DNA of 32,000 nt from Pyrodictium occultum (GTDB lineage Archaea; Thermoproteota; Thermoprotei_A; Sulfolobales; Pyrodictiaceae), in the NCBI RefSeq assembly GCF_001462395.1, contig NZ_LNTB01000001.1, positions 1,260,001 through 1,292,000 on the forward strand, in the 5' to 3' direction. The translations under genes were made by a program, and so were the position numbers. The notes below the pieces were generated by a model. That model was given only the letters and a program-made list of their open reading frames with translations, was not told where the DNA came from and ran no database searches. Shown one piece after another: positions 14,593 to 28,115 of this stretch (position 1 is its first letter; every line of letters begins with the position of its first letter).

Positions 14593-14593
14593 G

Positions 14594-14601
14594 CTTTAAT
14601 A
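14594..14601 (+). promoter_or_regulatory. TATA box (CTTTAATA) of the trp operon
   Basis: It lies immediately after the lpd stop (14590-14592). The first in-frame ATG of trpA is at 14649, about 50 nt downstream. Confidence 0.55.
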
Positions 14602-14648
14602 GTGGGAGCCCCGTGGGCCTGCCAGGCCTGGACCCTGATCCCTGGGCG

Positions 14649-15437
14649 ATGGAGGGAGGGCGTGATGGAGCGCCAATGGCTTTGAGCCGGCCGGGGTTCA
14701 GCGTCTACCTGACCATCGGGTTCCCCGAGCCGGCCCGGTTCCCCCAGGCCCTCGAGGCCCTCGAGGCCTGTGTCGACTTCTACGAGCTCGGCCTGCCCAC
14801 GGCGAGGCCCAAGTACGACGGCCCGACGGTGCGCGCTAGCCATAGGCGCGTCGTGGCGAGGGGCCTCCGGGGCCTAGAGGCGCTGAGGCTCCTTGAGAGG
14901 ACCAGTGTGGGGAAGCCATTCACCCTAATGGCCTACATGGAGGACTATGCTGGGAGCCTGCGGGGCCTCATGGAGGCCGCTGCCAGCGCTGGCGCGGGCT
15001 GCGTGCTGCTGCCCGACCTAGCCTTCGACTACCCCGGCGAGCTGGACCGCTACGTCGAGGAGAGCGAGAGGGCCGGGCTCCGGCCCTGCTTCTTCGCCTC
15101 CAGCAGGTTCCCCCACGCCTGGCTCCAGCGCTACGCGGCCCTCGACCCGCTCTACATCTACCTAGGCCTCCAGCCCGCCACCGGTGTGGAGCTGCCGATA
15201 GCGGTGGAGAAGAACGTGAGGCTCGCCAGGAGGCTTGTCGGCGACCGCTACCTGCTCACCGGCTTCGCCATCCGCCACCCGGAGGCAGCCGCCGCCCTGA
15301 TACGCGCCGGCGCCGACGCCGTGGTAGTGGGCTCGGCGGTGCTGCGCGCCCTGGAGGAGGGAGGCGTCGAGGAGGCCAGGGGGCTGGCCTGCAGCATCCA
15401 CCGGGCTGTCCACAGCGCTGCCCGCGGGGCTGCGTAG
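14649..15437 (+). CDS. trpA: Tryptophan synthase alpha chain
   Basis: FYELGLPTARPKYDGPTVRASH corresponds to the E-x-G-x-P-x-S-D-P-x-ADGP region, followed by GFAIRHPE and VVVGSAV. An alternative ATG is at 14676. The GTG at 14613 falls too close to the TATA box. Confidence 0.88.
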   Translation: MEGGRDGAPMALSRPGFSVYLTIGFPEPARFPQALEALEACVDFYELGLPTARPKYDGPTVRASHRRVVARGLRGLEALRLLERTSVGKPFTLMAYMEDYAGSLRGLMEAAASAGAGCVLLPDLAFDYPGELDRYVEESERAGLRPCFFASSRFPHAWLQRYAALDPLYIYLGLQPATGVELPIAVEKNVRLARRLVGDRYLLTGFAIRHPEAAAALIRAGADAVVVGSAVLRALEEGGVEEARGLACSIHRAVHSAARGAA

Positions 15438-15439
15438 CC

Positions 15440-16735
15440 GTGGTGCCCAGGTACTGGTACAACATTGTGGCGGATCTCCCGGAGCCGCTGCCGCCCCTCA
15501 TCGACCCGCTCGACGACGAGGAGTCGAGGATAGCGCTGCTGGTGAGGATACTCCCCTCCAGGCTGATAGACGAGGAGTACACGCTGAGCAGGCTCATCCC
15601 GATACCAGAGAGGATACGCGAGGCCTACGCCAGGGCGGGGAGGCCTACCCCGCTGCTCCGCGCCGAGGGGCTGGAGAGGGCGCTGGGCGTGAGCGGGAGG
15701 GTGAGGATCTACTACAAGTACGAGGGCGCCCTGCCCACGGGGAGCCATAAGCTGAACACGGCGCTACCCCAGGTCTACTACGCGCTCCTGGACGGAGCGG
15801 AGGAGGTGGCCACCGAGACGGGGGCGGGCCAGTGGGGCCTCGCGGTCGCCACAGCGGCGGCCATGCTGGGTGTCAAGGCGACGGTGTTCATGACTAGGAG
15901 CAGCTACGAGCGGAAGAAGCCCAGGAGGCTCGCAATGCAGGCCATGGGCGCCACGGTGTACCCCAGCCCCAGCAGGGTCACCGAGGCTGGGAGGAGGGCG
16001 CTGGAGGAGAGGCCCGACCACCCCGGTAGCCTGGGCCTCGCCATAACGGAGGCTATAGAGTACGTGCTTGGGAACCCCAAGCGCCGCTACGTAGCCGGCT
16101 CAGTCATGGAGAGCGTCGTTACCCACCAGACGGTGATAGGCCAGGAGGTTCTCCAGCAGCTGCCGGAGGAGCCGGACTACATGGTAGCCTGCGTCGGCGG
16201 AGGCAGCAACCTGGCCGGGTTCACCTACCCCGCTATAGGGATGAGGCTCCGCGGCGAGGGCTTCGAGAAGACCCGCTTCGTGGCGGCTGAGTCGGCGGCA
16301 GCCCCCCGGCTGACGAAGGGGAGCTACAGGTACGACGGCCTAGACACCGGCCTGGTCCTCCCCCTGGCGAGGATGTACAGCCTCGGCAAGGACTACGTGC
16401 CGCCCCCGATACACGCTGCCGGGCTCCGCTACCACGGGGCCGCCGCGAGCCTCTCGCTGCTGCGCAGGCTCGGTCTGGTGGAGGCCGTGGCCTACGGCCA
16501 GGAGGAGGTGTTCGAGGCGGCCCGGATCTTCGCCCGCTCCGAGGCCCTGCTCCCGGCGCCGGAGAGCGCCCACGCGATAAGGGCTGTGATCGACATCGCC
16601 CGCCGCGCGCCCAAGGGCACGGTGATAGCTTTCAACCTCAGCGGCCACGGGCTCATGGATATCGACGCCTACGAGACTCTCTCCTCCAGGATAGTCGAGG
16701 GCAGGCTCCCCGAGCCCACGGGGACCAGGAGGTGA
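15440..16735 (+). CDS. trpB: Tryptophan synthase beta chain, TrpB2 type
   Basis: 431 aa with a GTG start 2 nt after the trpA stop. It has the TrpB2-type N-terminus (PRYWYNIVADLPEPLPP), the PLP lysine context (LPTGSHKLNTAL), and GGGSNLAG. The length is that of TrpB2 rather than TrpB1. Confidence 0.9.
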   Translation: MVPRYWYNIVADLPEPLPPLIDPLDDEESRIALLVRILPSRLIDEEYTLSRLIPIPERIREAYARAGRPTPLLRAEGLERALGVSGRVRIYYKYEGALPTGSHKLNTALPQVYYALLDGAEEVATETGAGQWGLAVATAAAMLGVKATVFMTRSSYERKKPRRLAMQAMGATVYPSPSRVTEAGRRALEERPDHPGSLGLAITEAIEYVLGNPKRRYVAGSVMESVVTHQTVIGQEVLQQLPEEPDYMVACVGGGSNLAGFTYPAIGMRLRGEGFEKTRFVAAESAAAPRLTKGSYRYDGLDTGLVLPLARMYSLGKDYVPPPIHAAGLRYHGAAASLSLLRRLGLVEAVAYGQEEVFEAARIFARSEALLPAPESAHAIRAVIDIARRAPKGTVIAFNLSGHGLMDIDAYETLSSRIVEGRLPEPTGTRR

Positions 16736-17772
16736 CCGCGGCTGTGGCCGACCTCCCCAGGCTGCTGGAGGACCTGCTCTCCGGCCGCGGCATGGGCTTC
16801 GAGGAGGCCAGGAGCGTCGCCCTAGAGATGCTCCGGGGCGGCCTGGACGACGTGGCTATAGCGGCGATACTGGTCGCCCTGAGGGCCAAGGGCGAGACAG
16901 CGGAGACGGTGGCGGGCTTCTCGGCAGCGCTGCGCGAGACCTGCGTGAAGGTGCCCGCCGGGGGCCTGGAGCCGATAGACACCGCCGGCACCGGCGGAGA
17001 CGGGGCCCACACGCTCAACGCCTCCACCGCGGCCGCGATAGTCGCCGCTAGCCTGGGCGCCAGGGTGGCCAAGCACGGTAACCGCGGCGTGAGCAGCAGG
17101 AGCGGGAGCGCCGACTTCATGGAGGCCCTGGGCTACCGGATCGACCACGGCCCCGCCGAGGCCGCCTGCATGCTCAGCCGCGCCGGCTTCGCCTTCCTCT
17201 ACGCGCCCCGCTACCACCCGGCAATGAAGAGGGTGATGCCGGTCCGCAGGAGGCTCGGGATAAGGACGGTCTTCAACCTTGTGGGCCCCCTCTCCAACCC
17301 CGCCGGGGTGCGCCGCCAGGTGCTCGGCGTCGCGAGGCCCGAGCTGCTCGAGGTCATGGCGGGGGCGGCCCGGCTGCTGGGCTACGAGAGGCTCCTCCTG
17401 GTCCACGGCGAGCCAGGGATAGACGAGGTCAGCGTCTCCGGCAGGACCACCGTCTACGAGATCCGGGGCGGCAGGGTGGAGGAGTACAGCATAGAGCCCG
17501 AGGACCTGGGGCTCGGCCGCCACCGGCTGGCGGACCTCCGGGTGGAGGCGCCCGGGGAGAGCGTGGAGCGCTTCCTAGCCGTGGCCCGCGGCGCCGGGAG
17601 GAGGCAGGACCGCGACTTCATAGCAGCCAACGCGGCCGCGGCAATCTACGCTGCAGGGCTGGCGGGGAGCCTCAGGGACGCCGCCGAGCAGGCCCTCCAG
17701 GCCCTCGGGGACGGCACAGTGGCGGCCTACCTTGAGAGGCTCGTGGAGGCCTGCAGGGCTTGCTGCGGCTAA
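16732..17772 (+). CDS. trpD: Anthranilate phosphoribosyltransferase
   Basis: The GTG start overlaps the trpB stop (GTGA). Motifs seen: DTAGTGGDGAHTLNASTAAAIVAASLG, KHGNRGVSSRSGSADFMEALG. Confidence 0.93.
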   Translation: MTAAVADLPRLLEDLLSGRGMGFEEARSVALEMLRGGLDDVAIAAILVALRAKGETAETVAGFSAALRETCVKVPAGGLEPIDTAGTGGDGAHTLNASTAAAIVAASLGARVAKHGNRGVSSRSGSADFMEALGYRIDHGPAEAACMLSRAGFAFLYAPRYHPAMKRVMPVRRRLGIRTVFNLVGPLSNPAGVRRQVLGVARPELLEVMAGAARLLGYERLLLVHGEPGIDEVSVSGRTTVYEIRGGRVEEYSIEPEDLGLGRHRLADLRVEAPGESVERFLAVARGAGRRQDRDFIAANAAAAIYAAGLAGSLRDAAEQALQALGDGTVAAYLERLVEACRACCG

Positions 17773-18416
17773 AGATCTGCGGGCTCACCCGGCCAGAGGA
17801 CGTGGAGGCGCTCGACGGCGCCGCCGACTACCTGGGCTTCGTGGTCGCCCCGTCGAGGCTGAGCCCCCGCGTGCTGAGCCCCGGGGAGGCCAGGAGCCTG
17901 GCCGAGACCGTGTCTAGGAGCCGCCCCGTCCTGGTGGCGGCCGGCTATGGGCCCCGCGACGCAGTGGAGCTGGCGGCGAGGCTCGAGGCGTTCAGGGTGC
18001 TCCAGTACCACGAGCCCGCGGGCCCCGAGGTGCTCGCCGGCCTGGCCAGGGAGCTGGGCTCGATAGGAGTCTCCCTGGCCCCCGTCTCCCTCTGGGACGG
18101 CAGGAGGCTGAGCCCAGACCCCTGCGAGGCGGCGACCGTGGCGCCGGGGCACGAGTACCTCCTAGTGGACGCCGTCAAGGGGCTGGGCCTCCGCTACGCC
18201 GGGGGCCTGAGGGCGCCCCTCGAGGCGTACCTCCGGGCGGCAGTGTGCAGCAGCCGCGCGGCAGCCGCCGGCGGGGTGGTGCCGGAGAACGCCTGCCTCG
18301 TCGCCTCCACCGGGGTCTCGATGCTCGACGTGAGCAGCGGCGTCGAGGCCGAGCCGGGCCGCAAGGACCTCTCCAGGGTGGAGAAGCTGCTGGAGGTGCT
18401 GCGCTCATGCAGCTAG
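17760..18416 (+). CDS. trpF: Phosphoribosylanthranilate isomerase
   Basis: TTG start with a 13-nt overlap with trpD. The LKICGLTRPEDV N-terminus and the ~218-aa length fit TrpF. Confidence 0.85.
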   Translation: MLRLKICGLTRPEDVEALDGAADYLGFVVAPSRLSPRVLSPGEARSLAETVSRSRPVLVAAGYGPRDAVELAARLEAFRVLQYHEPAGPEVLAGLARELGSIGVSLAPVSLWDGRRLSPDPCEAATVAPGHEYLLVDAVKGLGLRYAGGLRAPLEAYLRAAVCSSRAAAAGGVVPENACLVASTGVSMLDVSSGVEAEPGRKDLSRVEKLLEVLRSCS

Positions 18417-19699
18417 ACTGGGCCGGGTGCCGCCGCGTCCCCCTCCCAAGCGCCCCGGAGCCCCGCCGGCTGGCGGTGTGGGCGGAGGAGCGCTACGGCT
18501 ATGTCGCGCTGCTCGAGAGCGGCGCGGGGCCGGGGGAGAAGGCCCGCTACACCCTGGTGGCCTACGGGGCCCGCCGGGTGGTGGAGGGCAGCCCCCTGGA
18601 GGCCTACGCCAGGCTCCGCGAGGCAGCCGCGGGCAGGGGCTGCGCCAGCATCCCCTGCAGGAGCATGCTCTTCGGCGTGGTCGGCTACGAGGCGGTGGCC
18701 GGGGCGGAGCCCTGGCTGGCCCCGATGCTGGGCCGCCACGAGTGGCCGGCGCTCCTAGTCTTCGAGCCCGAGACCCTCGTGGTCTACGACCACGCCAGGG
18801 GCCACGCCACGCTCTGCCCCGGGGACGCCGAGGCCGGGGAGAAGCCTCTCGGCGGCTGGAGCCCGGCCAGGGGCCCCGTGGAGGAGACGCCCCGCAGGCT
18901 CTTCGAGCAGTGGGTGGCAGAGGCCAGGGAGATGCTTGAGAGGGGCGAGTTCCTACAAGTAGTGCTCTCGAGATTCGAGCGCTACGAGTACCAGGGCGAG
19001 CCGCTGGCGCTCTACGCCAGGCTGGCGGACCGGAACCCCTCCCCCTACATGTTCTACATGAGGCTGGGGGAGAGGTGGATAGCCGGCTCCAGCCCCGAGC
19101 TGCTCGTCAGGATGGACGGGGGGAGGCTGGAGACGCACCCTATAGCCGGGACCCGGCCCCGCGGCAGGACGCCGGAGGAGGACCTGGCCCTCGAGGAGGA
19201 GCTGCTGGGCGACGAGAAGGAGAGGGCGGAGCACCTCATGCTCGTCGACCTCGCCAGGAACGACCTGGGCCGGGTAGCGTTGCCCGGCACGGTGAGAGTG
19301 ACGAGGCTCATGGACGTGGAGAAGTACAGCGCGGTCCAGCATATCGTGAGCAGGGTGGAGGCTGTGGCCCGGCCCGGGCTGGGCTACGCCGACGTCCTGG
19401 CAGCGGTCAACCCCGCCGGCACGGTGTCCGGCGCCCCGAAGCCGAGGGCAATGGAGACCATAGCTAGGCTCGAGGACAGGCCCCGCGGCCCCTACGCCGG
19501 CGCCGTCGGGGTCTACTCGGACCAGGCGGGCGAGACAGCCATAGTGATAAGGAGCGTCTGGAGCATAGACGACTCCACGCTGGAGACTAGGGCGGGCGCG
19601 GGGATAGTCTACGACTCCAGGCCCGAGAGAGAGTACATGGAGACCGTACACAAGCTTGCCGCGATCCACCGGGCCCTGGGAGCCGGCGGCGGGAGGTGA
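18407..19699 (+). CDS. trpE: Anthranilate synthase component I
   Basis: The ATG at 18407 overlaps the trpF end by 10 nt. Motifs seen: NPSPYMFYM, SSPELLV, HPIAGTRPRG, EHLMLVDLARNDLGRV, PAGTVSGAPK, RGPYAGAVG. The track start at 18245 is an Arg/Gly-rich artefact. Confidence 0.93.
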   Translation: MQLDWAGCRRVPLPSAPEPRRLAVWAEERYGYVALLESGAGPGEKARYTLVAYGARRVVEGSPLEAYARLREAAAGRGCASIPCRSMLFGVVGYEAVAGAEPWLAPMLGRHEWPALLVFEPETLVVYDHARGHATLCPGDAEAGEKPLGGWSPARGPVEETPRRLFEQWVAEAREMLERGEFLQVVLSRFERYEYQGEPLALYARLADRNPSPYMFYMRLGERWIAGSSPELLVRMDGGRLETHPIAGTRPRGRTPEEDLALEEELLGDEKERAEHLMLVDLARNDLGRVALPGTVRVTRLMDVEKYSAVQHIVSRVEAVARPGLGYADVLAAVNPAGTVSGAPKPRAMETIARLEDRPRGPYAGAVGVYSDQAGETAIVIRSVWSIDDSTLETRAGAGIVYDSRPEREYMETVHKLAAIHRALGAGGGR

Positions 19700-19705
19700 G
19701 CAGGA

Positions 19706-20296
19706 ACGGCCTACGACACCCTAGTCCTCATAATAGACAACTACGACAGCTTCGTCTACAACCTGGTGAACGTGCTCGCGGAGCTCGGGGCCAGGAGCAT
19801 AGTCGTGAGGAACGACGAGATAACCGTGTCGGGGATAGAGAGGATAAACCCGGACAGGATAATAGTCTCGCCGGGCCCCGGCAGCCCCCTCTCCGCCCGC
19901 GATGTAGGCGTGTCCGTGGAGGCCGTGAAGAGGCTCGGCCCCAGGATCCCGGTGCTAGGCGTCTGCCTAGGCCACCAGGTGGTGGGCGTAGCCTACGGCG
20001 CCAAGGTGAGGCGCGCCCGGAGGATAATGCACGGGAAGACGGACGAGATAGAGCACTACGGCGGCAGCCTCTACCGCGGGGTGCCCAGGGTGTTCACCGC
20101 CGCCAGGTACCACAGCCTCGTGCTGGACGAGATCCCCCCAGTGCTGGAGGTCACGGCAAGGAGCAGGAGCGACGGCGAGGTAATGGGGGTCCGGCACCGG
20201 GAGCACCCAGTCCACGGGGTCCAGTTCCACCCGGAGAGCATAGCAACCCCCCACGGCCCCAGGCTGCTCCGCAACTTCCTCGACGACCCGTGGTAG
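19706..20296 (+). CDS. trpG: Anthranilate synthase component II (glutamine amidotransferase); the start codon is anomalous
   Basis: GVCLGHQ (catalytic Cys) and FHPES are present. The conserved N-terminal strand LVLIIDNYDSFVYNL is encoded at 19721-19765, upstream of the first canonical start (GTG 19766). The only plausible initiator is ACG at 19706, 6 nt after a perfect GGAGGTGA. See findings. Confidence 0.8.
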   Translation, partial: TAYDTLVLIIDNYDSFVYNLVNVLAELGARSIVVRNDEITVSGIERINPDRIIVSPGPGSPLSARDVGVSVEAVKRLGPRIPVLGVCLGHQVVGVAYGAKVRRARRIMHGKTDEIEHYGGSLYRGVPRVFTAARYHSLVLDEIPPVLEVTARSRSDGEVMGVRHREHPVHGVQFHPESIATPHGPRLLRNFLDDPW

Positions 20297-20330
20297 AGGC
20301 GCCGGTGCAGGGAAGGAGGCAGGGGCGGCC

Positions 20331-21107
20331 TTGGGGGAGGGGCGTCCTGGAGGCTTCCTGGGGGAGGCTCTCGGGAGGAGCCTGGAGCGCTCCAGGCTGC
20401 TGGGCTCTCCACCGCGGCCCGGCAGCCTCCGCGGCGCGGTGGAGAAGGCCCTCTCCGAGGGGAGGCCCGGGCTGCTGATAGAGTACAAGCGGTGCAGCCC
20501 CGGGGGCTTCGTGGCCTGGCGCACCCCCTGGGAGTACCTGGAGGCCACGCTAAGCGTGGCAGACGCCTACTCGGTGCTGGTGGAGCCCTACTGGTTCTGC
20601 GGCAGCCCCGAGCTGGTGGCCTTCTTCGCCCGCCACCGCCCCGTGCTGGCTAAGGACTTCGCCTCCACCGCCGAGCAGCTCCAGCTGTACCGCCGCCACG
20701 GGGCCTCGGCGGCCCTCCTGATACTGGACATGCTGGGGTGGAGGCGGCTGGACGCGCTCTACCAGGAGGCGAGGAGCCTCGGCCTGGAAGCCCTAATAGA
20801 GACCACGAGCGCGGGCCCGGCGGTGGAGGCGATGAATAGCTACCCCGAGGCCCTGGTGGGGATAAACGCGAGGAACCTGGAGACGCTGGAGGTCAGCTAC
20901 CGGAGGCTCCTAGAGGAGATCGCCCGGGCCGCCGAGAGGAAGCCGAGCAGGGCTCTCCTAGTGGCGGAGAGCAGCATAGACAGCCCCGGGAAGGCCCTGG
21001 AGCTCGCCCGGGCGGGCGCTGACGCGCTCCTCATAGGCACATGGGCCATGAAGAGCCCAGGGGGGCTGGCGGGGCTCCGGGATAGGCTCCGGGGCTCCAG
21101 GAGCTAG
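20331..21107 (+). CDS. trpC: Indole-3-glycerol phosphate synthase
   Basis: TTG start. Motifs seen: LLIEYKRCSPGG (the E-x-K-x-x-SPS-like motif), LVGINARNLETLEV, LVAESSI. Confidence 0.87.
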   Translation: MGEGRPGGFLGEALGRSLERSRLLGSPPRPGSLRGAVEKALSEGRPGLLIEYKRCSPGGFVAWRTPWEYLEATLSVADAYSVLVEPYWFCGSPELVAFFARHRPVLAKDFASTAEQLQLYRRHGASAALLILDMLGWRRLDALYQEARSLGLEALIETTSAGPAVEAMNSYPEALVGINARNLETLEVSYRRLLEEIARAAERKPSRALLVAESSIDSPGKALELARAGADALLIGTWAMKSPGGLAGLRDRLRGSRS

Positions 21108-22330
21108 GGCTTCTTTAGGAGTATCAGCCTGTTAGCCTTCCCCTCCTTAACTATCCTTATGTACCCCATCGCTGCGAGCCTCCGGACGTGCCTCCAGAGC
21201 GTGGTCTTCGGAATCCCGGTCTCCCGGAGCAGCTGGCTCTGGAGCACAGAGCCCCCATGCTCCTCCAGCTTACTGAGGATAAGCAGGTCCACCTCATCCA
21301 GGCCTGTGGATGATATGGGGGCCGCGGCGTTAGAGGGGACGCCGCCCCCGCCGCCAAAAACTCCCCCACGGCGGGCGAGAGCCAGGCCGGCAGCCACGGC
21401 TACCACCAGCACAGCTGCAACTCCTCCTATCAGCGCGGTGCTGGGCCCCTTAGAGCCAGCGGCGGGCGGTGGGCTCGAAGGCCTCCCGGTGGTTGTCGCC
21501 GGCCTCATGGTTGTGGAGAGCCGCGTGGTCGCTAGAGCAGTCGACGTAGTTGCAGGGGCTACGGGCGCTGCCGGGGTAGTGGTGCTTGTTGCAGTTGCCG
21601 TCCTAGCTGTCGTGCTGGCTGTTGTGGTACTCGTGGCTTTAGTCGCCCTTGTTACACTTGTTCTTGTTGTTGTAGTTGTGCCTCCAGGCTTAGCAGCAGC
21701 CTTGGTAGTAGTAGTGGTAGTAGTGAAGGTGGTAGCGGTAGTCTTTGAAGTCTTTGACGCGGGGGTACTTGTAGTCGCAGCGGCCCCGGTCTTAGTCTTT
21801 GCCGTGGCGGTCGGCGGCGTCTGGGGCGCGAGCACGTACCGGATGGTGGCGGGGCCCCTCAGGTACAGCACCACCGTGTTGTTCACTGTTGTGGCGTTCA
21901 CCAGGCCCTCGGGGAGGCTGAGCAGCACTACGCCCGGGCTGACCCTCAGCTCCACCAGGCCGGTGTAGTTCACCAGGAACTGGAGCACACCATTCTGCTC
22001 GGTGACGTTGCCCAGGTAGTCTATGTACACGCTCCCCCTCCCCGAGGCGGCCACGTAGATCTTGCCGCCGCTGTAGATAGCGGAGACGAGGCTCCCGCCG
22101 AGCCTAGCCTCTATCGTGGCGGGTATCGCTGGTACCGGGGCAGGGTACTCGTTCATCCCCGGCTCCGCGGTGCCCCATATCTCCACCACGACGGTCCCGT
22201 CGTCCCGTATAGTGACCACTGGCGTCTTGGAGAGCTCCGCGTGCGCGGCGGCGGAGAAGGCGAGCAGCAGCATGGCCGCCGGCAGCGCTATGCAGAGCAA
22301 CACCCGGCTCATCGCTTCTCCTCCCTCCAT
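21104..22330 (-). CDS. Membrane-tethered winged-helix protein: signal peptide, ~135-aa beta-rich ectodomain, ~130-aa Thr-rich stalk, one TM helix, C-terminal cytoplasmic wHTH
   Basis: Signal peptide MSRVLLCIALPAAMLLLAFSAAAHA|E. The Thr/Ala/Pro-rich low-complexity region spans aa ~169-297 (21440-21826). The TM helix ALIGGVAAVLVVAVAAGLALA is followed by RRGG. The C-terminal DLLILSKLEEHGGSVLQSQLLRETGIPKTTLWRHVRRLAAMGYIRIVKEGKANRLIL has a MarR/TrmB-like wHTH pattern. The start is 22330 or the Met at 22312. Confidence 0.8.
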   Translation of the reverse strand: MEGGEAMSRVLLCIALPAAMLLLAFSAAAHAELSKTPVVTIRDDGTVVVEIWGTAEPGMNEYPAPVPAIPATIEARLGGSLVSAIYSGGKIYVAASGRGSVYIDYLGNVTEQNGVLQFLVNYTGLVELRVSPGVVLLSLPEGLVNATTVNNTVVLYLRGPATIRYVLAPQTPPTATAKTKTGAAATTSTPASKTSKTTATTFTTTTTTTKAAAKPGGTTTTTRTSVTRATKATSTTTASTTARTATATSTTTPAAPVAPATTSTALATTRLSTTMRPATTTGRPSSPPPAAGSKGPSTALIGGVAAVLVVAVAAGLALARRGGVFGGGGGVPSNAAAPISSTGLDEVDLLILSKLEEHGGSVLQSQLLRETGIPKTTLWRHVRRLAAMGYIRIVKEGKANRLILLKKP

Positions 22331-22413
22331 GAGACTCTAGGCGGCTCATAGCTGTCATGATGCGGCGCGGGTATTAGCTTCTTGCGGCCCTCTCCCCGGA
22401 GCGGGTACTCCCA

Positions 22414-22432
22414 GGAACAACTGGTTTGTTCC
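22414..22432. promoter_or_regulatory. Inverted repeat GGAACAA-ctggt-TTGTTCC in the divergent intergenic region (candidate operator)
   Basis: Perfect 7-bp arms with a 5-nt spacer, located between the wHTH gene (start 22330/22312) and the coiled-coil gene (ATG 22529). A degenerate copy, GGGACAAC-AG-TTTCCC, follows at 22442-22457. Confidence 0.35.
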
Positions 22433-22528
22433 ACCGCTTACGGGACAACAGTTTCCCGCACACGTTCCAGCATCCCCCTTATGAGGACCCGAGGACACCA
22501 GGGGACCCAGGCGGACAGGGTGAGGCGG

Positions 22529-24685
22529 ATGCAGGCACGCGCCCATAGAACCGGGCTCCTAGGAGCAGCCGCGCTGAGCGTACTGGCCCTACTGCTAGCA
22601 GCCACTCTATCACCGCTGCTAGCCCCGGTCGCCCTGGCGGAGAACGGCCCAGCAGGAAACAACACCAATACCACTACAACCAATACCACTAATAGTAACG
22701 TGGCTGCAACGGCAAGCACCAGCGGCAACACCACGGCAGCCGCTACGAACACCACCGCCGGCGCGCAGCTTAGCCCCGGCGCGGTGCGCGCCCTGCTGCT
22801 AGCCTACAGCGCTATGATACGCAGCACCCTGGCCAGGATGGGCCTGCTCAACGCCACCCCTGCAGAGATAGCGGCCGCCCTGAACGTCTCGCTAGAGACC
22901 GCTGAGACGCTGAAGGAGGCGCTCAACCTGCCCAGAACCCTCGGCAACATGACCAGTCAGCAGGCCGCTGAGCTGCTCCAGAAGGTGGCCTCAGCCTACC
23001 GGGCGCTGGCCAAGAAGATGGTGGAGGCCAACCTCCACGCGGCCGAAGAGGCTAGGGAGAGGATACAGAGGCAGATGCAGCGACACCTACTGCTACGCAT
23101 ATCCCATACCGTGGAGCAGCTCGCGAGGCAGCTCAACGACACCCAGCTCGCTGCCCTGGCCCAGCAGCTCCGCAGCATGGCGCTCAGTGGCAACTACACC
23201 CGGGAGAACTTAACCAGTATAATGTCGAGCGTGGTGGCCCGGATAGAGGCGGCGAAGATATTCATGATGGCCACCACTATAGACAACGCCACCATAGCGC
23301 AGCTGGTCGAGGCAGCCGAGGCTGGCAATGCCACGAGCCTCCAGGATTACCTGGCCAGGCTCAACAAGAGCTTCGCCAAATCCCTCCACCTAGTGAAGAC
23401 GCTGTCGAAGAGGCTGCGCGCAGCCAACGAGACAGAAGTCGGTGAAGCCCTTGAGGAGGCCCTCGAGAGGCTCGAGGATGCCAACGAGACGGTGGGCCAT
23501 GTAGCGCTGGCGGCTAGCATAGCGGCAGGCGGCAACGCCACCGCAAACGCTACCGCTGTTATAAAGGGTGCGGTTGCCGCAGCCTTCCAGGCCAGGATAG
23601 AGAAGCTCGAGACAAAGATAAGCATACTCATGGAGGAGGCCAGCCTCCTAGAGAACGCTACCAACAACACCATTGTGCAGGAGCTGGTGAAGGCAGCTAA
23701 GGACGCGTTGGCGAAGGCATCACGCCTCATAAACGAGTCCAGGGCGGCGCTCGAGAAGGGCGAGATACCTATAGCGGCAAAGGACCTGGGGATGGCGTCC
23801 AGCCTCGTGGCCAAGGCGGGCATCTACCTGGCAAGGGCCAACATAGCCATAGCGCTCGGTGGCCGCCTCCACGGCCACCTGGGCGTCGGCAAGCAGGGCC
23901 CGGCCAAGCACGCTGCCCCGCCAGGCCTCTCCAAGGCGCTGGAGAGGCTGCAGAGGGCAGTGCAGGAGAGGATAGCGGAGGCGAGTAGGGCTATAAACAA
24001 GACCATGGAGGCCGTCCAGGGGATAAACAACACCAAGATAAAGGAGAAGGCTATGGAGAAGCTGGAGGAGGCAAGAGAGAAGCTGGAAGAGGCCATAGAC
24101 CTGGCCAAGGAAGCCCAGGAGAAGCTGGCGGAGGGCAGCACGGCTGCCGCCTTCCAGCTCTACCAGAAGGCCCTGGTAAAGATAGGGCAGGCTCTCAATG
24201 ATGTCAGAGTAGCCTCGTGGCTAGCCAGCCTCGGCAAGGGCTTCCGGCCGCCGATACCCCGCCTCCCTCACGAGCATGAGAAGCACGGCGGCTGGATAAA
24301 GCCCGGCGAGGCGAATGTGACCGGCAACATAACCGAGGATATCGACGAGCTGCTCGGCGAGGCCAAGGAGCTGGGCCAGGAGCTAGCCCAGCTCCGGAAC
24401 GAGACCAGCGCCAACCCGGCAGCCGCCGCCCTGGTCCACAGGGCCTCTTCGATGCTCCAGAGCGCTGTAGCGCTCCTGCTACAGGCTAAGGAGCTGGCTA
24501 AGAAGGGGCAGACACAGCCGGCCAAGGCCCTCATAAACGTAGCTAAGAACATGCTGGAGAAGGTTGAGCACACACTGAAGATGCTCGAGGAGAAGCTGAA
24601 GCATGGCGAGCATGGGGGCGGCGGGCAGAGGGGCCACGGCGAGCATGGCGAGCATGGAGGCCGCGGCAGGGGCGGCCACGGGTAA
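22529..24685 (+). CDS. Secreted, heavily sequon-decorated alpha-helical coiled-coil protein with a C-terminal His/Gly-rich tail
   Basis: The ATG at 22529 is preceded by GGTGA. Signal peptide MQARAHRTGLLGAAALSVLALLLAATLSPLLAPVALA|EN, then an Asn/Thr-rich block, then ~650 aa of Ala/Leu/Glu/Lys-rich heptad-like sequence. I counted 26 N-x-S/T sequons by eye. There is no C-terminal TM helix. The tail reads KHGEHGGGGQRGHGEHGEHGGRGRGGHG. An alternative ATG is at 22481. Confidence 0.8.
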   Translation: MQARAHRTGLLGAAALSVLALLLAATLSPLLAPVALAENGPAGNNTNTTTTNTTNSNVAATASTSGNTTAAATNTTAGAQLSPGAVRALLLAYSAMIRSTLARMGLLNATPAEIAAALNVSLETAETLKEALNLPRTLGNMTSQQAAELLQKVASAYRALAKKMVEANLHAAEEARERIQRQMQRHLLLRISHTVEQLARQLNDTQLAALAQQLRSMALSGNYTRENLTSIMSSVVARIEAAKIFMMATTIDNATIAQLVEAAEAGNATSLQDYLARLNKSFAKSLHLVKTLSKRLRAANETEVGEALEEALERLEDANETVGHVALAASIAAGGNATANATAVIKGAVAAAFQARIEKLETKISILMEEASLLENATNNTIVQELVKAAKDALAKASRLINESRAALEKGEIPIAAKDLGMASSLVAKAGIYLARANIAIALGGRLHGHLGVGKQGPAKHAAPPGLSKALERLQRAVQERIAEASRAINKTMEAVQGINNTKIKEKAMEKLEEAREKLEEAIDLAKEAQEKLAEGSTAAAFQLYQKALVKIGQALNDVRVASWLASLGKGFRPPIPRLPHEHEKHGGWIKPGEANVTGNITEDIDELLGEAKELGQELAQLRNETSANPAAAALVHRASSMLQSAVALLLQAKELAKKGQTQPAKALINVAKNMLEKVEHTLKMLEEKLKHGEHGGGGQRGHGEHGEHGGRGRGGHG

Positions 24686-24732
24686 CCCGGAGAGAGGCCG
24701 TCGCTAAGACGCATCCGGCCCATGGGGCTACG

Positions 24733-24847: not shown

Positions 24848-25699
24848 TTGAGGCGCTGTAGCCCCTCGACCAGGCTCTACGGGCTTATAGGCAGCCCAGT
24901 CTCCCATAGCCTGAGCCCCGCCATACACTGCGAGGTCTACCGCCGAGCGGGTGTAGACGCTGTCTACCTGGCCTGGGAGACTCCGCTGGAGAGGCTGGAG
25001 GAGAGGCTGGAGGCGCTGAGAAGCCTCGCCCACGGCTTCAACGTAACCACACCCCTCAAGGAGGCCGTCCTCAGCCTCCTCGACCGCGTGGAGGCCGAGG
25101 CCGCGGAGATAGGGGCCGTGAACACGGTGAGGAACGAGGACGGGGAGCTAGTAGGCTACAACACCGACTACCTCGGCGTGGCCGAGTGCCTCAGGGGCAG
25201 CCGGCCGCGAGTAGCACTGGTCATAGGCGCGGGTGGCGCGGCTAGGGCAGCCGTCTATGCGCTCTACCGGCTAGGCGCGGAGAAGGTCTACATAGCTAAC
25301 AGGGGGGCAGAGAGGGCTAGGAGGCTCGCAGGGTGGGCCGGCCGCCTCGGCCTAGACGCCACCCCCACCCCCCTGGAGGAGGCGGCGGTGCCCGCAGCCC
25401 ACGCGGACACAGTGGTGAACGCAACCCCGCTGGGCAGCCTGGCCTGCTGCCCTGACCAGGCCCCGCCCGTGCTGGAGGGGCTCCGCGAGGGCCAGCTAGT
25501 CTTCGACATGGTTTACCGGCCTCTGGAGACCCGGCTGCTCCGGGCGGCGAGGGAGCGCGGGGCCAGGACCGTTGACGGGCTCTGCATGCTCGTCTGGCAG
25601 GCCCTCCACGCGGACAGAATATGGCTAGGCATAGAGCCCACCCGGGAGCTCTACGAGACAGCCAGAAAGGCCGCGCTGGAGGCGCTGGCGAGCAGCTAG
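24848..25699 (+). CDS. aroE: Shikimate 5-dehydrogenase
   Basis: TTG start. Motifs seen: LYGLIGSPVSHSLSPAIH, GFNVTTPLKEAV, GAVNTV, YNTDYLG, VIGAGGAARA. Confidence 0.9.
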   Translation: MRRCSPSTRLYGLIGSPVSHSLSPAIHCEVYRRAGVDAVYLAWETPLERLEERLEALRSLAHGFNVTTPLKEAVLSLLDRVEAEAAEIGAVNTVRNEDGELVGYNTDYLGVAECLRGSRPRVALVIGAGGAARAAVYALYRLGAEKVYIANRGAERARRLAGWAGRLGLDATPTPLEEAAVPAAHADTVVNATPLGSLACCPDQAPPVLEGLREGQLVFDMVYRPLETRLLRAARERGARTVDGLCMLVWQALHADRIWLGIEPTRELYETARKAALEALASS

Positions 25700-25974
25700 A
25701 CCGGGAGGAGCATCACCCTCTCCACTCCCCGGATCCTCCTCAGCTCCTCCATGAGGGGCCTCAGCTCAGTGGCCGATGCAGCAGCCACGGCTATATTGAT
25801 GCAGTGCTTCTCGTCGAGAAGCTGGTGGTGGAACGATCGGACCAGGTGAAGGTAGCGGTGGATCACCCCTATCACTCTGCGCTCGGCTGAAGTCTCCTCG
25901 TGGCATACAACGGTTGCTATTATCCATGCCCTCTTCCCCTCGAGGCTATTAGATGCCTCAAACTGTTCTATCAT
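25696..25974 (-). CDS. nikR: NikR C-terminal metal-binding (ACT-like) domain, lacking its DNA-binding domain as annotated
   Basis: [12 protein letters not shown]...[54 protein letters not shown] aligns by eye with E. coli NikR residues ~55-130 (...HVHINHDDCLEIAVLKG...GVRHG). Confidence 0.65.
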
Positions 25975-26193: not shown

Positions 26194-28115
26194 ATGGTGT
26201 TTTGTAGCCCTGCAGTGATGAGTGGTGTGAAGTGCTGTGGATTCCTGCATGACGGTTGGTGGCTGGCGCTGCTTATCCTCGGGCTTCTAGTACTATCGCT
26301 CAGCCTGCTAGGGCTAGACCAGCTGGCCTGGTTCATCCTTGCAGCGGTTGCAGCTGGATTGTTGGCAAGGTTCACTGTCATGTTGGCAAGGGGCAGGGTT
26401 ACTGTAGACCTCTTGATGGGGCTCTCCGTCCTAGTGATGTTGAAATACGGTCTTACCTCTGAGGCAGCGCTTGTGGCCACGCTGTACGCTGCGTCGGAGA
26501 TACTGGAGGATGCTGCGGAGGAGGCTGCAGAGAGGAGGCTTACGAGCCTCCGGGAGCTTCTGCCGCGCACCGCCCTGGTCCGCCGCGGCAACGTAGAGAA
26601 GGTTCACATTGACGAGGTGAAGCCTGGCGACGTGATCATAGTCCCGCATGGGGGCATGGTGCCTCTCGACTCCATGCTGCTAAGCGAGGAGGCGGTTTTT
26701 GATACATCTATGGTCACCGGGGAGCACGAGCCGAGGAGGCTGACGAGAGGCGACCCGGTAGAGAGCGGCTACATGAATATAGGCGGTATGGCTGTGGGGG
26801 TCAGGGCTGTAAAGCCTGCTAGGGAGAGTGCAATCCAGCTACTGGTGCGCGAGGCCCTGGAGACGCTGGAGAAGAAGACGAGGCACCAGCGCCTCATAGA
26901 GCGCATCGCCCCCTGGTACATAGGCCTGCTCCTAGCCTCCTACGCGGCTGCATCAGCAATACTTGGCCCGGAGAGAAGCCTAGTCTTCCTCCTGGCTGGC
27001 TGCCCGAGCGCCTACATAGTGGTGTCGAGCTACACCTACATGCTAGTCCTGGGCCAGCTGGCACGTCGAGGCGTGGTGGTGAGGAGCCCCAGAGCCTCGA
27101 GAACGCCTCCCGGGCCAGGACGGTTGTGCTAGACAAGACCGGCACAATCACCCTCGGCAGCCTTCGCGTGGCTCGCATACACTATGAGGGCCGGGATCCA
27201 GCCGGGAGACGATACGCCTCATAGCCTCGGCTGCAAGGGCCAGCCTCCACCCCGCAGCCGAGGCGGTGGCTAGGCTGAGCAATGAGATTGCAGAGGTGGA
27301 GGAGGTCAACGAGATCCCTGGCAAGGGCGTGGTAGCCAGGGTTGAGGGGCATCTAGTGGTCCTGGGTAGTAGGAGCCTTGTCGAGGAGCACGCCGGCGGC
27401 CTGCCGCCCGGCAACCCTTGCGAAGGGCCCGTAGTCTATGCTGCAGTGGACGGCGCCTACGTGGCCTCGTTCTGCCTGGAAGAAGAGCTGGACCCCGGGG
27501 CAGAGCGGGTGGTGGAGACGCTGAAAAACATGGGGCTTAGAGTCGTGGTTGCCAGCGGCGACTCGAGCTCATCGGTGAGAATGATCGCCGAGAGGCTCGG
27601 CATAGACTACTACGGGGGCCTACGGCCTCATGAGAAGAAGAGGCTGGTTGAAAATCTCCGGCGGGAGGGCCCTGTCCTAGTAGCCGGGGACGGGGTCAAC
27701 GACATCCCCATGCTAGCCGCCAGCGATGTCGGCGTCGCCATGGCGCGTATAGCGCTGGTGGCTAGAAGCGCCGACGCTGTATCCACCCGGGGGGCTCCGG
27801 GGCCTGCCAGACCTGCTCCGCGGATCCAGGACTTATCTGGCCTCCCTCTACACTGGGCTTGCAGCCGCCACGCTGCTAAAGCTGGCAGTAATTGTGGCGG
27901 GCTTAGCGGGCGTCATCTCCCTCCCCCCAGTGCTAGTCCTCGGCGATGATGGGGTCACACTCGTTGCCGCGGCCTCTGTCAGCCTCGCCGCGGGCTTTGC
28001 CTGGAGGAAGGGAGGAAGGCTAAGCTCGCTGCTGGGAAGGCTAGGGAGCCGCCCGCTAGGTAATACTAGTAATACCACAAGACAACGGGAAGAGTATGTC
28101 CGCAACAATTTATAA
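26194..28115 (+). pseudogene. P1B-type (heavy-metal) P-type ATPase without an N-terminal metal-binding domain, interrupted by three frameshifts
   Basis: Frame 1 (26194-~27087) carries TGE (MVTGEHEP) and a CPS motif in the TM helix (LLAGCPSAYIV). Frame 2 (~27090-27206) carries VVLDKTGTITLG. Frame 3 (~27206-27790) carries an HP motif (ASLHPAAEAV) and VAGDGVNDIPMLAASDVGVAMA. Frame 4 (~27792-28115) carries GLRGLPDLLRGSRTYL plus the final TM helices. The frame switches fall at a C4 run (27087-27090), a G3 run (27204-27206) and a G6 run (27789-27794). Confidence 0.8.
28108..28115 (+). promoter_or_regulatory. TATA box (ATTTATAA) for the 28131/28140 gene; the transcript is likely leaderless
   Basis: This consensus-like TATA overlaps the ATPase stop codon. 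ATG codons at 28131 and 28140 lie 23-32 nt downstream, which is about where transcription would be expected to start. Confidence 0.55.

What the first reader, a model, noticed from the sequence alone, without database searches (positions are those of the whole stretch)
21104..22330. One-component, membrane-tethered winged-helix regulator with an extracellular sensor domain held on a ~130-aa Thr-rich stalk
Seen in sequence: a cleavable-looking signal peptide, a ~135-aa beta-rich ectodomain with N-x-S/T sequons, and a very long Thr/Ala/Pro low-complexity segment (aa ~169-297). One TM helix followed by RRGG comes next (positive-inside rule, so the C-terminus would be cytoplasmic), then a C-terminal MarR/TrmB-like wHTH. 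This would couple an extracellular or pseudo-periplasmic input directly to DNA binding. It resembles ToxR/CadC logic with inverted topology. The stalk is long enough to place the sensor domain at or beyond the S-layer. I know of no experimentally characterised archaeal member of this architecture. It is transcribed divergently from a giant secreted coiled-coil glycoprotein, which suggests a regulator/target pair.
Basis: partly seen in the sequence, partly recalled or inferred. Interest (0 to 1): 0.7.

Follow-up and report, generated by a model that had tools for sequence, protein, structure and literature searches.

The report
Membrane-tethered archaeal regulator with surface-protein partner
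A Pyrodictium gene encodes a DNA-binding switch anchored in the cell membrane with a sensor-like domain outside the cell, and across many heat-loving archaea it sits beside the gene for a large secreted surface protein whose promoter carries a conserved repeat, so the switch probably controls that gene.

Summary
ORF 21104-22330(-) is Pyrodictium occultum CF15_06800, annotated as hypothetical. It has a signal peptide, a 140-aa all-beta ectodomain (AF2 pLDDT 96, no Pfam family), a 126-aa Thr/Ala/Pro stalk, one TM helix followed by RR, a Gly-rich tether and a minimal ArsR/MarR-like wHTH.

Across 121 relatives the N-out/C-in topology holds. K+R is 0.85 before the TM and 3.75 after it. Sequons are 2.15 per 100 aa outside and 0.08 inside.

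The family occurs in many Thermoproteota lineages. The long stalk is specific to the Pyrodictiaceae clade (family median 43 aa).

The neighbouring secreted, sequon-rich helical protein is conserved in 19-21 of 24 well-flanked loci, in divergent or tandem order.

Its promoter carries a conserved array of GGAAC/GTTCC half-sites directly upstream of the TATA box. Density is 14/kb against 1.4/kb in other intergenic DNA. Where the two genes are separated, the array stays with the helical gene.

The best reading is a type-I, membrane-tethered one-component regulator of the adjacent surface-protein gene, possibly a feedback loop.

About a quarter of the ectodomain family appear to lack the wHTH, and two of the three such loci I examined keep the helical partner. 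The extracellular partnership may therefore be the core.

There is no experimental precedent. It is a new variant of a known kind.

The parts
21104..22330 (-). Whole ORF of the membrane-tethered wHTH protein. It is 408 aa from ATG 22330. The likely real start is Met7 at 22312, giving 402 aa = CF15_06800. The stop codon is at 21104-21106.
22238..22312 (-). Signal peptide, aa 7-31 (MSRVLLCIALPAAMLLLAFSAAAHA|E).
   Evidence: Hydropathy. An N-terminal hydrophobic segment is present in the relatives.
21815..22237 (-). Extracellular all-beta domain, aa 32-172, with 4 N-x-S/T sequons. It has no Pfam family and shows a weak fold resemblance to the N-terminal beta domain of M1/M61 aminopeptidases.
21437..21814 (-). 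Thr/Ala/Pro/Ser-rich low-complexity stalk, aa 173-298.
   Evidence: Linker length across the family is 8-147 aa with a median of 43 aa.
21374..21436 (-). Single transmembrane helix, aa 299-319, followed by R320 R321.
21302..21373 (-). Short Gly-rich cytoplasmic tether, aa 320-343 (RRGGVFGGGGGVPSNAAAPISSTG).
   Evidence: The family median TM-to-wHTH distance is 17 aa.
21116..21301 (-). Minimal winged helix-turn-helix, aa 344-405. The recognition helix is about aa 375-388 (KTTLWRHVRRLAAM).
22370..22380 (-). A/T-rich TATA-like element (AAGCTAATACC on the minus strand), the candidate promoter of the regulator gene.
   Evidence: Read from the sequence. Inferred, not tested.
22414..22432 (.). Perfect inverted repeat GGAACAA-CTGGT-TTGTTCC, the candidate operator core.
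   Evidence: unique in the 32-kb window, 0 of 100 shuffles. Aligned with conserved sites in relatives.
22451..22468 (.). Two further half-sites, GTTTC (22451-22455) and GTTCC (22464-22468). The second lies 10 nt upstream of the partner gene's TATA (CTTATGAG, from 22478) and 5 nt upstream of the C-run at 22474.
22474..22489 (+). Conserved C-run plus TATA-like box (CCCCCTTATGAGGACC) of the helical-protein gene, about 45 nt before its ATG.
   Evidence: Conserved in the divergent-type loci except L005, where it is degenerate, as GGTTCTCATAAGG on the other strand.
22529..24685 (+). Partner and probable target gene: a secreted, heavily sequon-bearing alpha-helical protein (718 aa, CF15_06805). It has a signal peptide, an Asn/Thr-rich N-terminus, a His/Gly-rich C-terminal tail and no membrane anchor.
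24717..24729 (+). Terminator-like hairpin plus T-run after the partner gene.
   Evidence: consensus match only.

Best explanation
The gene encodes a type-I (N-out/C-in) single-pass membrane protein that acts as a one-component transcription regulator.

Proposed steps:
1. After Sec export and signal-peptide cleavage, a glycosylated beta-sandwich ectodomain stands on a Thr-rich stalk outside the membrane.
2. A minimal wHTH hangs from the inner face on a tether of about 20 residues.
3. The wHTH binds an array of GGAAC/GTTCC half-sites lying between the two divergent promoters. These half-sites are directly upstream of the TATA box of the neighbouring gene for a secreted, N-glycosylated helical surface protein.
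4. Binding controls that gene, probably as an activator because the sites lie upstream of the TATA. It possibly also controls the regulator's own gene.
5. The wHTH has no dimerisation helices of its own, so occupancy of the paired half-sites should depend on oligomerisation driven by the ectodomain or TM helix. That would be how the outside state is transmitted.
6. The most likely outside input is the partner protein itself or the state of the envelope it builds, giving a feedback loop.

Shown in silico: the architecture, the topology, the wHTH fold, the conserved gene pairing, and the conserved cis-element tied to the partner promoter.

Inferred: that this wHTH binds that element, the sign of regulation, and the nature of the signal.
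For: Architecture and fold.

Topology: in 121 relatives K+R averages 0.85 in the 15 aa before the TM and 3.75 after it, with 113 of 121 having more inside. Sequons are 2.15 per 100 aa outside and 0.08 inside.

Family size and distribution: the ectodomain profile finds 168 cluster representatives. Of the 160 family proteins analysed (150 listed hits plus earlier family members), 121 have SP-ecto-linker-TM-R/K-wHTH. They occur in Pyrodictiaceae, Acidilobaceae, Aeropyrum, Desulfurococcaceae, Ignisphaera, Nitrososphaeria/Wolframiiraptor and Geothermarchaeota. Divergent versions occur in Bathyarchaeota and Methanomethylicales.

Pairing: 19 of 24 well-flanked loci have an adjacent SP-bearing, sequon-rich helical protein. 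The count is 21 of 24 if Aeropyrum and L004 are included. Only 1 of 64 background ORFs meets the same criteria. The partners are collinearly homologous within clades. Gene order varies between divergent, regulator-first tandem and partner-first tandem, which argues for functional linkage rather than inherited synteny.

Cis-element:
- A conserved block runs TATA, then TTyGTTyC, then TTGTTCC-N11-GGAACAA.
- GTTYC-N9-13-GRAAC occurs 14 times in 377 kb, and 10 of these are within 250 nt upstream of the family gene.
- Tandem-type loci have GRAACC-NTTT-GRAACC directly before CCCTAAWATC.
- Half-site density is 14.2/kb against 1.45/kb in 68 other intergenic regions of the same loci.
- In L004, where the genes are 1.8 kb apart, the array sits at the partner's promoter and none lies upstream of the regulator.
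- In the window the densest 80-nt stretch of the whole 32 kb is 22385-22464, and the 19-nt palindrome is unique.

Recognition helix: the motif G[LI]PKTT[LI]WR is nearly invariant, which matches the conserved half-site.
Against: There is no experimental evidence of any kind.

The motif was found and tested on related sequences, so the enrichment statistics are post hoc and not phylogenetically independent.

wHTH-less ectodomain-stalk-TM relatives (L043, L044) still have a helical partner with TGAAACA/TGTTTCA palindromes at its promoter, and no wHTH gene lies within 5 kb. In those genomes some other protein must bind the element, so it could do so here as well.

Four to five loci with the regulator show no helical neighbour (L023, L026, L035, and L029 and L033 with limited flank).

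A tether of about 20 residues requires the promoter DNA to come to the membrane. This is known for bacterial ToxR/CadC and for ArnR but is untested here.

In the window the N11 palindrome seen in relatives is degenerate on one arm, and a different arrangement (GGAAC-N9-GTTCC) is present instead.
Confidence: 0.6

Rival explanations
1. The protein is primarily a structural membrane anchor or receptor. The ectodomain on its stalk holds or organises the secreted helical protein, which has no anchor of its own, in the pseudo-periplasm or envelope. The wHTH is an accessory, lineage-variable add-on that may give autoregulation or DNA-membrane tethering, and is not the main function.
For: About a quarter of ectodomain relatives end right after the TM with no wHTH. 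Three were checked. L043 and L044 are paired with 576-580-aa secreted helical proteins. L040 lies in a MoxR/DUF58/DUF4350 surface-complex operon. None has a wHTH within 5 kb. The helical partners have a signal peptide but no C-terminal TM. Conserved ectodomain positions are Gly, Pro and hydrophobic residues with no obvious ligand pocket.
Against: Of the 160 family proteins analysed, 121 do carry the wHTH, with a near-invariant recognition helix. That degree of conservation is hard to explain for a dispensable add-on. The cis-element co-occurs with the pair. No direct evidence exists for ectodomain-partner binding, and the apparent fusion in L037 was not significant. This reading is compatible with the best explanation rather than exclusive of it.
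Confidence: 0.2
2. The protein is a proteolytically released regulator with Notch/ATF6-like logic. The membrane form is inactive, and an outside event triggers cleavage near or within the TM helix. This frees a roughly 9-kDa soluble wHTH that then binds the GGAAC sites.
For: In the Wolframiiraptor/Nitrososphaeria clade a Zn-ribbon Peptidase_M48 gene (E 6e-23) stays next to the pair in two different arrangements. The tether is very short (median 17 aa), which makes DNA access from the membrane awkward. In one lineage a 1-nt frameshift directly after the TM yields a separate 81-aa wHTH ORF. A weak, sub-threshold GPS-CTERM-like sorting-signal match spans the TM.
Against: No protease is conserved next to the pair in Pyrodictiaceae, including this window. 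The M48 protein shows no clear TM segments by hydropathy. A lone 65-aa wHTH has no dimerisation surface, so release would lose the avidity needed for paired half-sites. The frameshift lies in a T7 homopolymer run and may be an assembly error.
Confidence: 0.12
3. The conserved GGAAC array is the operator of a different, soluble transcription factor. The tethered wHTH would then bind other DNA or act as a protein-protein module, and the gene adjacency would reflect only a shared role at the cell surface.
For: wHTH-less loci keep the palindromes. In the window, a 20-bp perfect palindrome with the same half-sites (GTTCCCACCGGGGTGGGAAC, 9933-9952) abuts the TATAAA of the DAHP-synthase promoter. The half-site may therefore belong to a wider regulon or to another factor.
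Against: The array tracks the pair across lineages from Thermoprotei to Nitrososphaeria and Methanomethylicales, together with a near-invariant recognition helix. It is about 10-fold rarer in 68 other intergenic regions.
Confidence: 0.08

Closest known systems
Bacterial bitopic transmembrane transcription regulators (ToxR, TcpP, CadC, PsaE)
   Same: They are one-component systems. A single TM helix links an extracytoplasmic domain to a cytoplasmic wHTH that acts on promoters from the membrane. Oligomerisation of the outside domain controls DNA binding.
   Different: Those proteins have an N-terminal OmpR/PhoB-type wHTH and a C-terminal periplasmic sensor (type II topology, no signal peptide). 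Here the order is inverted (type I, signal peptide needed). The wHTH is a minimal ArsR/MarR-like core (HTH_24/MarR_2/DUF7343) with no Trans_reg_C hit. The tether is much shorter. The transcription machinery is archaeal TBP/TFB.
ArnR / ArnR1 of Sulfolobus acidocaldarius (PMC6396743)
   Same: They are the only biochemically studied archaeal membrane-bound transcription factors. They activate a gene for a secreted surface structure (archaellin flaB) through boxes upstream of its promoter, which is analogous to the GGAAC array upstream of the partner's TATA.
   Different: ArnR has an N-terminal HTH, a cytoplasmic HAMP-like and sensing domain, and two C-terminal TM helices, with no ectodomain. None of these features is present here.
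'Transmembrane transcription regulators' census (Demey et al. 2023, PMC10269533)
   Same: The protein meets that paper's operational definition (predicted DNA-binding domain plus at least one TM). The census counts 1-2 TTRs in Pyrodictiaceae genomes and 1,384 in archaea.
   Different: The census is a count by domain. It does not describe this family, its ectodomain, its topology, its partner gene or its operator.
MarR/ArsR-type soluble wHTH regulators (e.g. PDB 3bpx, 6j0e, 8zde)
   Same: The wHTH core is the same (TM-score 0.7-0.83, rmsd 1.1-1.8 A), and they bind palindromic half-site operators.
   Different: Those are soluble homodimers with flanking dimerisation helices and a ligand or metal site in the same domain. 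Here only the 65-aa core exists, fused behind a TM helix.
Eukaryotic type-I membrane-tethered transcription factors (Notch-like logic; from my own knowledge)
   Same: The topology is the same: extracellular receptor domain, single TM helix, and a cytoplasmic transcription-factor moiety at the C-terminus.
   Different: There is no homology. Notch acts only after proteolytic release, which is not shown here.

Membership tests
Transmembrane transcription regulator (TTR, operational class of Demey et al. 2023) | Predicted DNA-binding domain | tested here: met
   HTH_24, MarR_2 and DUF7343 score above the Pfam cut-offs. AF2 gives a wHTH fold. Foldseek matches DNA-bound MarR/ArsR structures.
Transmembrane transcription regulator (TTR, operational class of Demey et al. 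2023) | At least one transmembrane segment in the same polypeptide | tested here: met
   TM at aa 299-319, hydropathy 2.65. A TM lies between the ectodomain and the wHTH in 121 of 121 relatives.
Transmembrane transcription regulator (TTR, operational class of Demey et al. 2023) | Regulates transcription while in the membrane | not testable with these tools
   This needs fractionation plus ChIP or in vitro transcription.
ToxR/CadC-like regulators | N-terminal cytoplasmic OmpR/PhoB-type wHTH (Trans_reg_C) | tested here: not met
   No Trans_reg_C hit at E<=1. The wHTH is C-terminal and of HTH_24/MarR_2 type.
ToxR/CadC-like regulators | Type II topology (N-in, C-terminal periplasmic sensor, no signal peptide) | tested here: not met
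   The protein has a signal peptide and an N-terminal ectodomain. Positive-inside and sequon statistics give N-out/C-in.
MarR family | wHTH core matching the MarR profiles | tested here: met
   MarR_2 scores 30.7 bits against a cut-off of 27. MarR (PF01047) scores only 16.6 against 24.6.
MarR family | N- and C-terminal helices forming the dimer interface; soluble homodimer of about 140-160 aa | tested here: not met
   The domain is about 65 aa with only H1-b1-H2-H3-b2-b3. Foldseek covers only about 40-45% of MarR chains (TMt 0.37-0.46).
ArnR/ArnR1 | N-terminal HTH, HAMP-like/sensor domain, two C-terminal TM helices | tested here: not met
   Domain order per PMC6396743. Here the HTH is C-terminal, there is one internal TM and there is no HAMP hit.
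TrmB family | PF01978 above the gathering score | tested here: not met
   15.7 bits against a cut-off of 25.6.
Pfam DUF7343 (PF24034) | Score at or above the gathering cut-off | tested here: met
   27.7 against 27.6 bits, which is marginal. The domain is also precomputed on 16 of the 18 first-round homologs.
GPS-CTERM sorting signal (NF040681) | Score at or above the cut-off and position at the C-terminus | tested here: not met
   18.7 against 28 bits. The match is internal (aa 295-322) and is followed by 86 more residues.
M1/M61 aminopeptidase N-terminal beta domain (fold only) | Close structural superposition | tested here: inconclusive
   Best Foldseek result is E 1e-4, TMq 0.40-0.56, rmsd 6-8 A, 8-13% identity. 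There is no Pfam hit for the ectodomain.

The most novel reading that the evidence does not exclude
Across Thermoproteota there may be a two-gene 'envelope feedback' module. A membrane-anchored receptor would physically bind a secreted, glycosylated helical surface protein through its beta-sandwich ectodomain. It would convert that occupancy directly into transcription of the same protein's gene, through clustering of a tethered wHTH on a GGAAC half-site array. This would be an assembly checkpoint for an archaeal cell-surface component with no kinase, sigma factor or second messenger. The wHTH-less relatives would be the ancestral anchor-only form.
Probability: 0.25. Interest if true: 0.75.

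Novelty: new variant of a known kind. Interest (0 to 1): 0.6.

Why it matters
Signal transduction across the archaeal membrane is poorly understood, especially in Thermoproteota, which largely lack classical two-component systems. The only studied archaeal membrane-bound regulators (ArnR/ArnR1) sense inside the cell.

This family would be the first archaeal regulator class with a true extracellular domain wired directly to DNA binding. The analysis supplies three things that make it testable:
- a defined 65-aa DNA-binding domain;
- a predicted operator (GGAAC half-sites at 22414-22468);
- a predicted target (CF15_06805).

It also flags an unstudied family of large secreted helical glycoproteins as a conserved, specifically regulated component of the envelope of hyperthermophilic archaea.

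Tried and rejected
- Pfam and NCBIfam on the ectodomain gave no family. A PDB sequence search gave only weak HTH hits.
- Foldseek of the ectodomain gave only a loose match to the M1/M61 aminopeptidase N-domains. I do not use it for function.
- Homolog searches for the helical partner, with a single sequence and with a profile, returned only the protein itself.
The PDB profile search and Pfam gave only generic helical-bundle hits. 'Coiled coil' therefore remains unproven.
- The ectodomain alignment was too variable to seed the genome scan. The full-length alignment worked through the wHTH motif.
- The repeat finder at minimum length 12 missed the 7-bp-arm palindrome. I found it by reading the sequence and confirmed it with the DNA search.
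- Rosetta-stone idea: the helical insert in the Methanomethylicales homolog (L037) resembles partner proteins no better than shuffled controls do (27.7 vs 26.9 bits). Rejected.
- Stalk length against partner length gave Spearman rho 0.36, p 0.07, uncorrected for phylogeny and with some TM-calling errors. Inconclusive.
- The 'split' wHTH gene in L041/L042 is a 1-nt frameshift in a T7 run. It is not evidence for a naturally separate wHTH.
- Literature searches for DUF7343, COG2512 and related terms found nothing on the family.
Full report
**What is there**

The window is from Pyrodictium occultum. The ORF at 21104-22330(-) is 100% identical to CF15_06800, annotated 'hypothetical protein'. The database entry starts at Met7 (nt 22312), which is preceded by GGAGG.

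- a hydrophobic signal peptide, aa 7-31, ending AHA|E;
- a beta-rich domain, aa 32-172, with sequons at N108, N121, N145 and N150;
- a low-complexity stretch, aa 169-297, containing 50 Thr, 25 Ala, 14 Pro and 13 Ser out of 129 residues;
- one TM helix, aa 299-319, followed by RRGG;
- a Gly-rich tether;
- a C-terminal wHTH.

Pfam places aa 343-402 in HTH_24 (E 5e-8), MarR_2 and DUF7343, all above their gathering scores. TrmB, IclR and ArsR profiles score below theirs.

An AlphaFold2 model of aa 337-408 built on 14 family sequences has pLDDT 86.7 and the canonical H1-b1-H2-H3-b2-b3 order. It superposes on ArsR, MarR and HsmR DNA-binding cores at 1.1-1.8 A. It covers less than half of those proteins, so this is a bare wHTH without the dimerisation helices of MarR.

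The ectodomain model is very confident (pLDDT 96.3, 15 strands). It has no Pfam family and only a loose resemblance to the N-terminal beta domain of M1/M61 aminopeptidases (TM 0.4-0.56, rmsd 6-8 A).

**Topology**

A profile of the ectodomain searched against 1.84 billion cluster representatives found 168 relatives, 125 of them at E<=1e-10. Of the 160 family proteins analysed (150 listed hits plus earlier family members), 121 have the full order: signal peptide, ectodomain, linker, TM, basic residues, wHTH.

In these 121, the 15 residues before the TM hold 0.85 K+R on average and the 15 after it hold 3.75. In 113 of 121 there are more after than before. N-x-S/T sequons occur at 2.15 per 100 aa on the N-terminal side and 0.08 per 100 aa on the C-terminal side. 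The wHTH is therefore cytoplasmic, held a median of 17 residues from the membrane.

The linker between ectodomain and TM ranges from 8 to 147 aa with a median of 43 aa. The ~130-aa Thr-rich stalk is a feature of the Pyrodictium clade. Hyperthermus butylicus has 38 aa.

**Distribution**

A scan of one genome per species returned family loci from:
- Pyrodictiaceae, Acidilobaceae, Aeropyrum, Desulfurococcaceae and Ignisphaera;
- Nitrososphaeria, including three Wolframiiraptor species;
- Geothermarchaeota.

Bathyarchaeota, other Desulfurococcales and Methanomethylicales carry proteins with the same TM-wHTH module and a divergent beta-rich ectodomain.

**The neighbour**

The divergent gene probably starts at ATG 22529 and encodes the 718-aa CF15_06805. 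It encodes a signal peptide, an Asn/Thr-rich segment, a long alpha-helical body and a His/Gly-rich tail. There are 26 sequons in the 767-aa ORF that starts at 22382. It has no TM anchor. It matches nothing specific in Pfam or PDB, only generic helical bundles.

Homologous proteins of 606-1463 aa lie divergently upstream of the regulator gene in P. delaneyi, H. butylicus, several Pyrodictiaceae MAGs and Aeropyrum. The rest of the neighbourhood differs among these genomes.

In the Wolframiiraptor/Nitrososphaeria, Geothermarchaeota and one Desulfurococcaceae lineage, a 406-680-aa secreted, sequon-rich helical protein lies immediately downstream in the same orientation. In a Methanomethylicales MAG it lies immediately upstream.

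I used fixed criteria: at least 350 aa, a hydrophobic N-terminus, at least 7 sequons and helix-favouring composition. By these, 19 of 24 loci with at least 1.5 kb on both sides have such a neighbour. The count is 21 of 24 if the sequon-poor Aeropyrum protein and the L004 protein 1.8 kb away are included. Only 1 of 64 other large ORFs in the same loci qualifies.

**A conserved cis-element**

The divergent intergenic regions align over about 110 nt. The aligned block contains:
- a C-run plus TATA-like box for the helical gene (window 22474-22489, CCCCCTTATGAGGACC), about 45 nt from its ATG;
- further upstream, a cluster of GGAAC/GTTCC half-sites (GAAAC/GTTTC in P. delaneyi). In six relatives this includes TTGTTCC-N11-GGAACAA with exactly 11 nt of spacing.

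The pattern GTTYC-N9-13-GRAAC occurs 14 times in 377 kb of fetched DNA, and 10 of these are within 250 nt upstream of the family gene.

In the window the arrangement is:
- GGAACAA-CTGGT-TTGTTCC at 22414-22432, which is unique in 32 kb and appears in 0 of 100 shuffles;
- GTTTC at 22451-22455;
- GTTCC at 22464-22468.

The densest 80-nt stretch of half-sites in the whole window is 22385-22464.

The tandem-type loci served as a semi-independent test. Their short spacer before the helical gene carries GRAACC-NTTT-GRAACC and more half-sites directly in front of a CCCTAA(A/T)ATC TATA box.

Strict half-site density is 14.2/kb in these promoter regions, against 1.45/kb in 68 other intergenic regions of the same loci and 1.2/kb overall.

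Two observations tie the element to the helical gene rather than to the regulator gene:
- In L004 the genes are 1.8 kb apart. The array sits in front of the helical gene's TAAAAAGG box, and the regulator's own upstream region has none.
- In the Methanomethylicales locus it precedes the helical gene, which comes first.

The recognition-helix motif G[LI]PKTT[LI]WR is almost invariant across the family, consistent with a conserved half-site.

**Mechanism proposed**

The protein is a type-I membrane-tethered one-component regulator, and its wHTH acts on the adjacent promoter from the membrane. The sites lie upstream of the TATA boxes of both divergent genes, so activation is more likely than repression. 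This follows from general knowledge of archaeal promoters and from the ArnR boxes.

The wHTH lacks its own dimer interface. Cooperative occupancy of the paired half-sites should therefore depend on clustering driven from outside the membrane.

The conserved partner, the absence of an obvious ligand pocket (conserved ectodomain positions are Gly, Pro and hydrophobic) and the partner's lack of an anchor all point to the partner protein or the envelope state as the input. That step is inference.

**Complications**

About 35 of the 160 family proteins analysed lack the wHTH. I examined three kinds:
- One (L041/L042) is a 1-nt frameshift in a T7 run right after the TM.
- Three are genuine, with no wHTH within 5 kb. 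One sits in a MoxR/DUF58/DUF4350 operon. Two are paired with 576-580-aa secreted helical proteins whose promoters still carry perfect TGAAACA/TGTTTCA palindromes.

The ectodomain-partner relationship therefore seems older than the wHTH fusion. In those genomes another DNA-binding protein, perhaps a paralog, must use the element.

A proteolytic-release mechanism cannot be excluded. A Zn-ribbon M48 peptidase gene stays next to the pair in the Nitrososphaeria clade, but nothing comparable is present in Pyrodictiaceae.

**Comparison with known systems**

The logic is that of ToxR/CadC, but the domain order and topology are inverted and the wHTH class differs. ArnR/ArnR1, the only studied archaeal membrane-bound regulators, have an N-terminal HTH, cytoplasmic sensing and two C-terminal TM helices. 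The 2023 census of transmembrane transcription regulators counts such proteins in Pyrodictiaceae but does not describe them. Literature searches for the Pfam DUF and related terms found nothing.

**Verdict**

The finding is extended by a family-wide topology test, a distribution across many Thermoproteota lineages, a conserved partner gene and a predicted operator. It is a new variant of a known kind (transmembrane one-component regulators). It is uncharacterised and experimentally tractable. Interest is 0.6.

Noticed in passing
window 9933-9952: A 20-bp perfect palindrome, GTTCCCACCGGGGTGGGAAC, lies directly upstream of a canonical TATAAA (9955-9960) in the divergent region between the transketolase genes and the DAHP-synthase gene (likely start ATG 10028). 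It uses the same GTTCC/GGAAC half-sites as the candidate operator. It could be a second target of the tethered wHTH or the site of an aromatic-amino-acid regulator.
   Followed up: partly
L008, L009, L010, L016, L022, L024, L025, L028 (e.g. L025:3931-4857): In the Wolframiiraptor/Nitrososphaeria clade, a ~308-aa protein with terminal zinc ribbons and a Peptidase_M48 domain (E 6e-23) stays next to the regulator/helical-protein pair. It is divergent upstream in some loci and follows the helical gene in others. It may be a processing protease for the system.
   Followed up: partly
L041:5001-5949 and L042:114-1062: A family gene is split right after the TM helix by a 1-nt frameshift in a T7 homopolymer run (…ARRRFF* / …FFERSISLYLDDID…). 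This gives a 241-aa ectodomain-TM ORF and an overlapping 81-aa wHTH ORF. The same sequence appears in an NCBI MAG and in a Logan assembly. It could be an assembly error, a pseudogene or slippage-controlled expression.
   Followed up: partly
L040:1-5903; L005:1-2644: A wHTH-less ectodomain-stalk-TM protein is the last gene of an operon that includes a DUF4350 protein, and a bpMoxR AAA ATPase plus DUF58 gene pair lies divergently upstream of that operon (L040). A MoxR-DUF58 pair also lies just beyond the helical partner gene in L005. This hints at a link to MoxR-type surface-complex assembly.
   Followed up: no
L043:3081-5825; L044:3172-5723: wHTH-less ectodomain-stalk-TM genes are paired with 576-580-aa secreted helical proteins. 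Perfect 7-bp-arm palindromes TGAAACA/TGTTTCA lie upstream of the helical gene, and no wHTH ORF occurs within 5 kb.
   Followed up: yes
L017:1402-2235 and 4968-5834; L020 likewise: Geothermarchaeota/Nitrososphaeria loci carry two family paralogs 3.5 kb apart. The second is preceded by its own 455-aa signal-peptide protein of helix-favouring composition with only 3 sequons.
   Followed up: no
window 26194-27949: A heavy-metal-type P-type ATPase is broken into at least two ORFs (E1-E2_ATPase 26194-27132; HAD hydrolase 27266-27949). The DKTGT motif lies in a third frame around 27120-27160, so there are at least two frameshifts. It is a pseudogene or contains sequencing errors. A 92-aa NikR_C-domain ORF lies just upstream at 25696-25974(-).
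   Followed up: partly
window 11-3103: A 1030-aa ORF has no Pfam match. Its C-terminal third holds repeated units of the type 'GTYYIAVKSSGGVEVELEG… / GTYYILVEGPPGARIKVSG…', which suggests tandem beta domains. I did not examine it further.
   Followed up: no
window 3180-20478 and 24848-25699: The regulator/partner pair is inserted inside a large aromatic-amino-acid biosynthesis cluster (aroA, aroC, tyrA-like, transketolase, DAHP synthase, aroB, aroD, trpA/B/D/F/E/G/C, aroE), between trpC and aroE. P. delaneyi also has the pair next to the trp operon, but H. butylicus does not.
   Followed up: partly
window 21365-21448 (aa 295-322): There is a weak, sub-threshold match to the GPS-CTERM sorting-signal model (18.7 vs 28 bits) over 'GPS'+TM+RR. 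Some homologs also have GPS or GPP before the TM. The wHTH-less relatives end exactly after TM+RR, like sortase-type tripartite signals.
   Followed up: no
window 24600-24685: The helical partner ends in a His/Gly-rich tail (HGEHGGGGQRGHGEHGEHGGRGRGGHG). Relatives end in Gly/Ser/His-rich or strongly acidic tails. This may be a metal-binding or surface-interaction segment.
   Followed up: no
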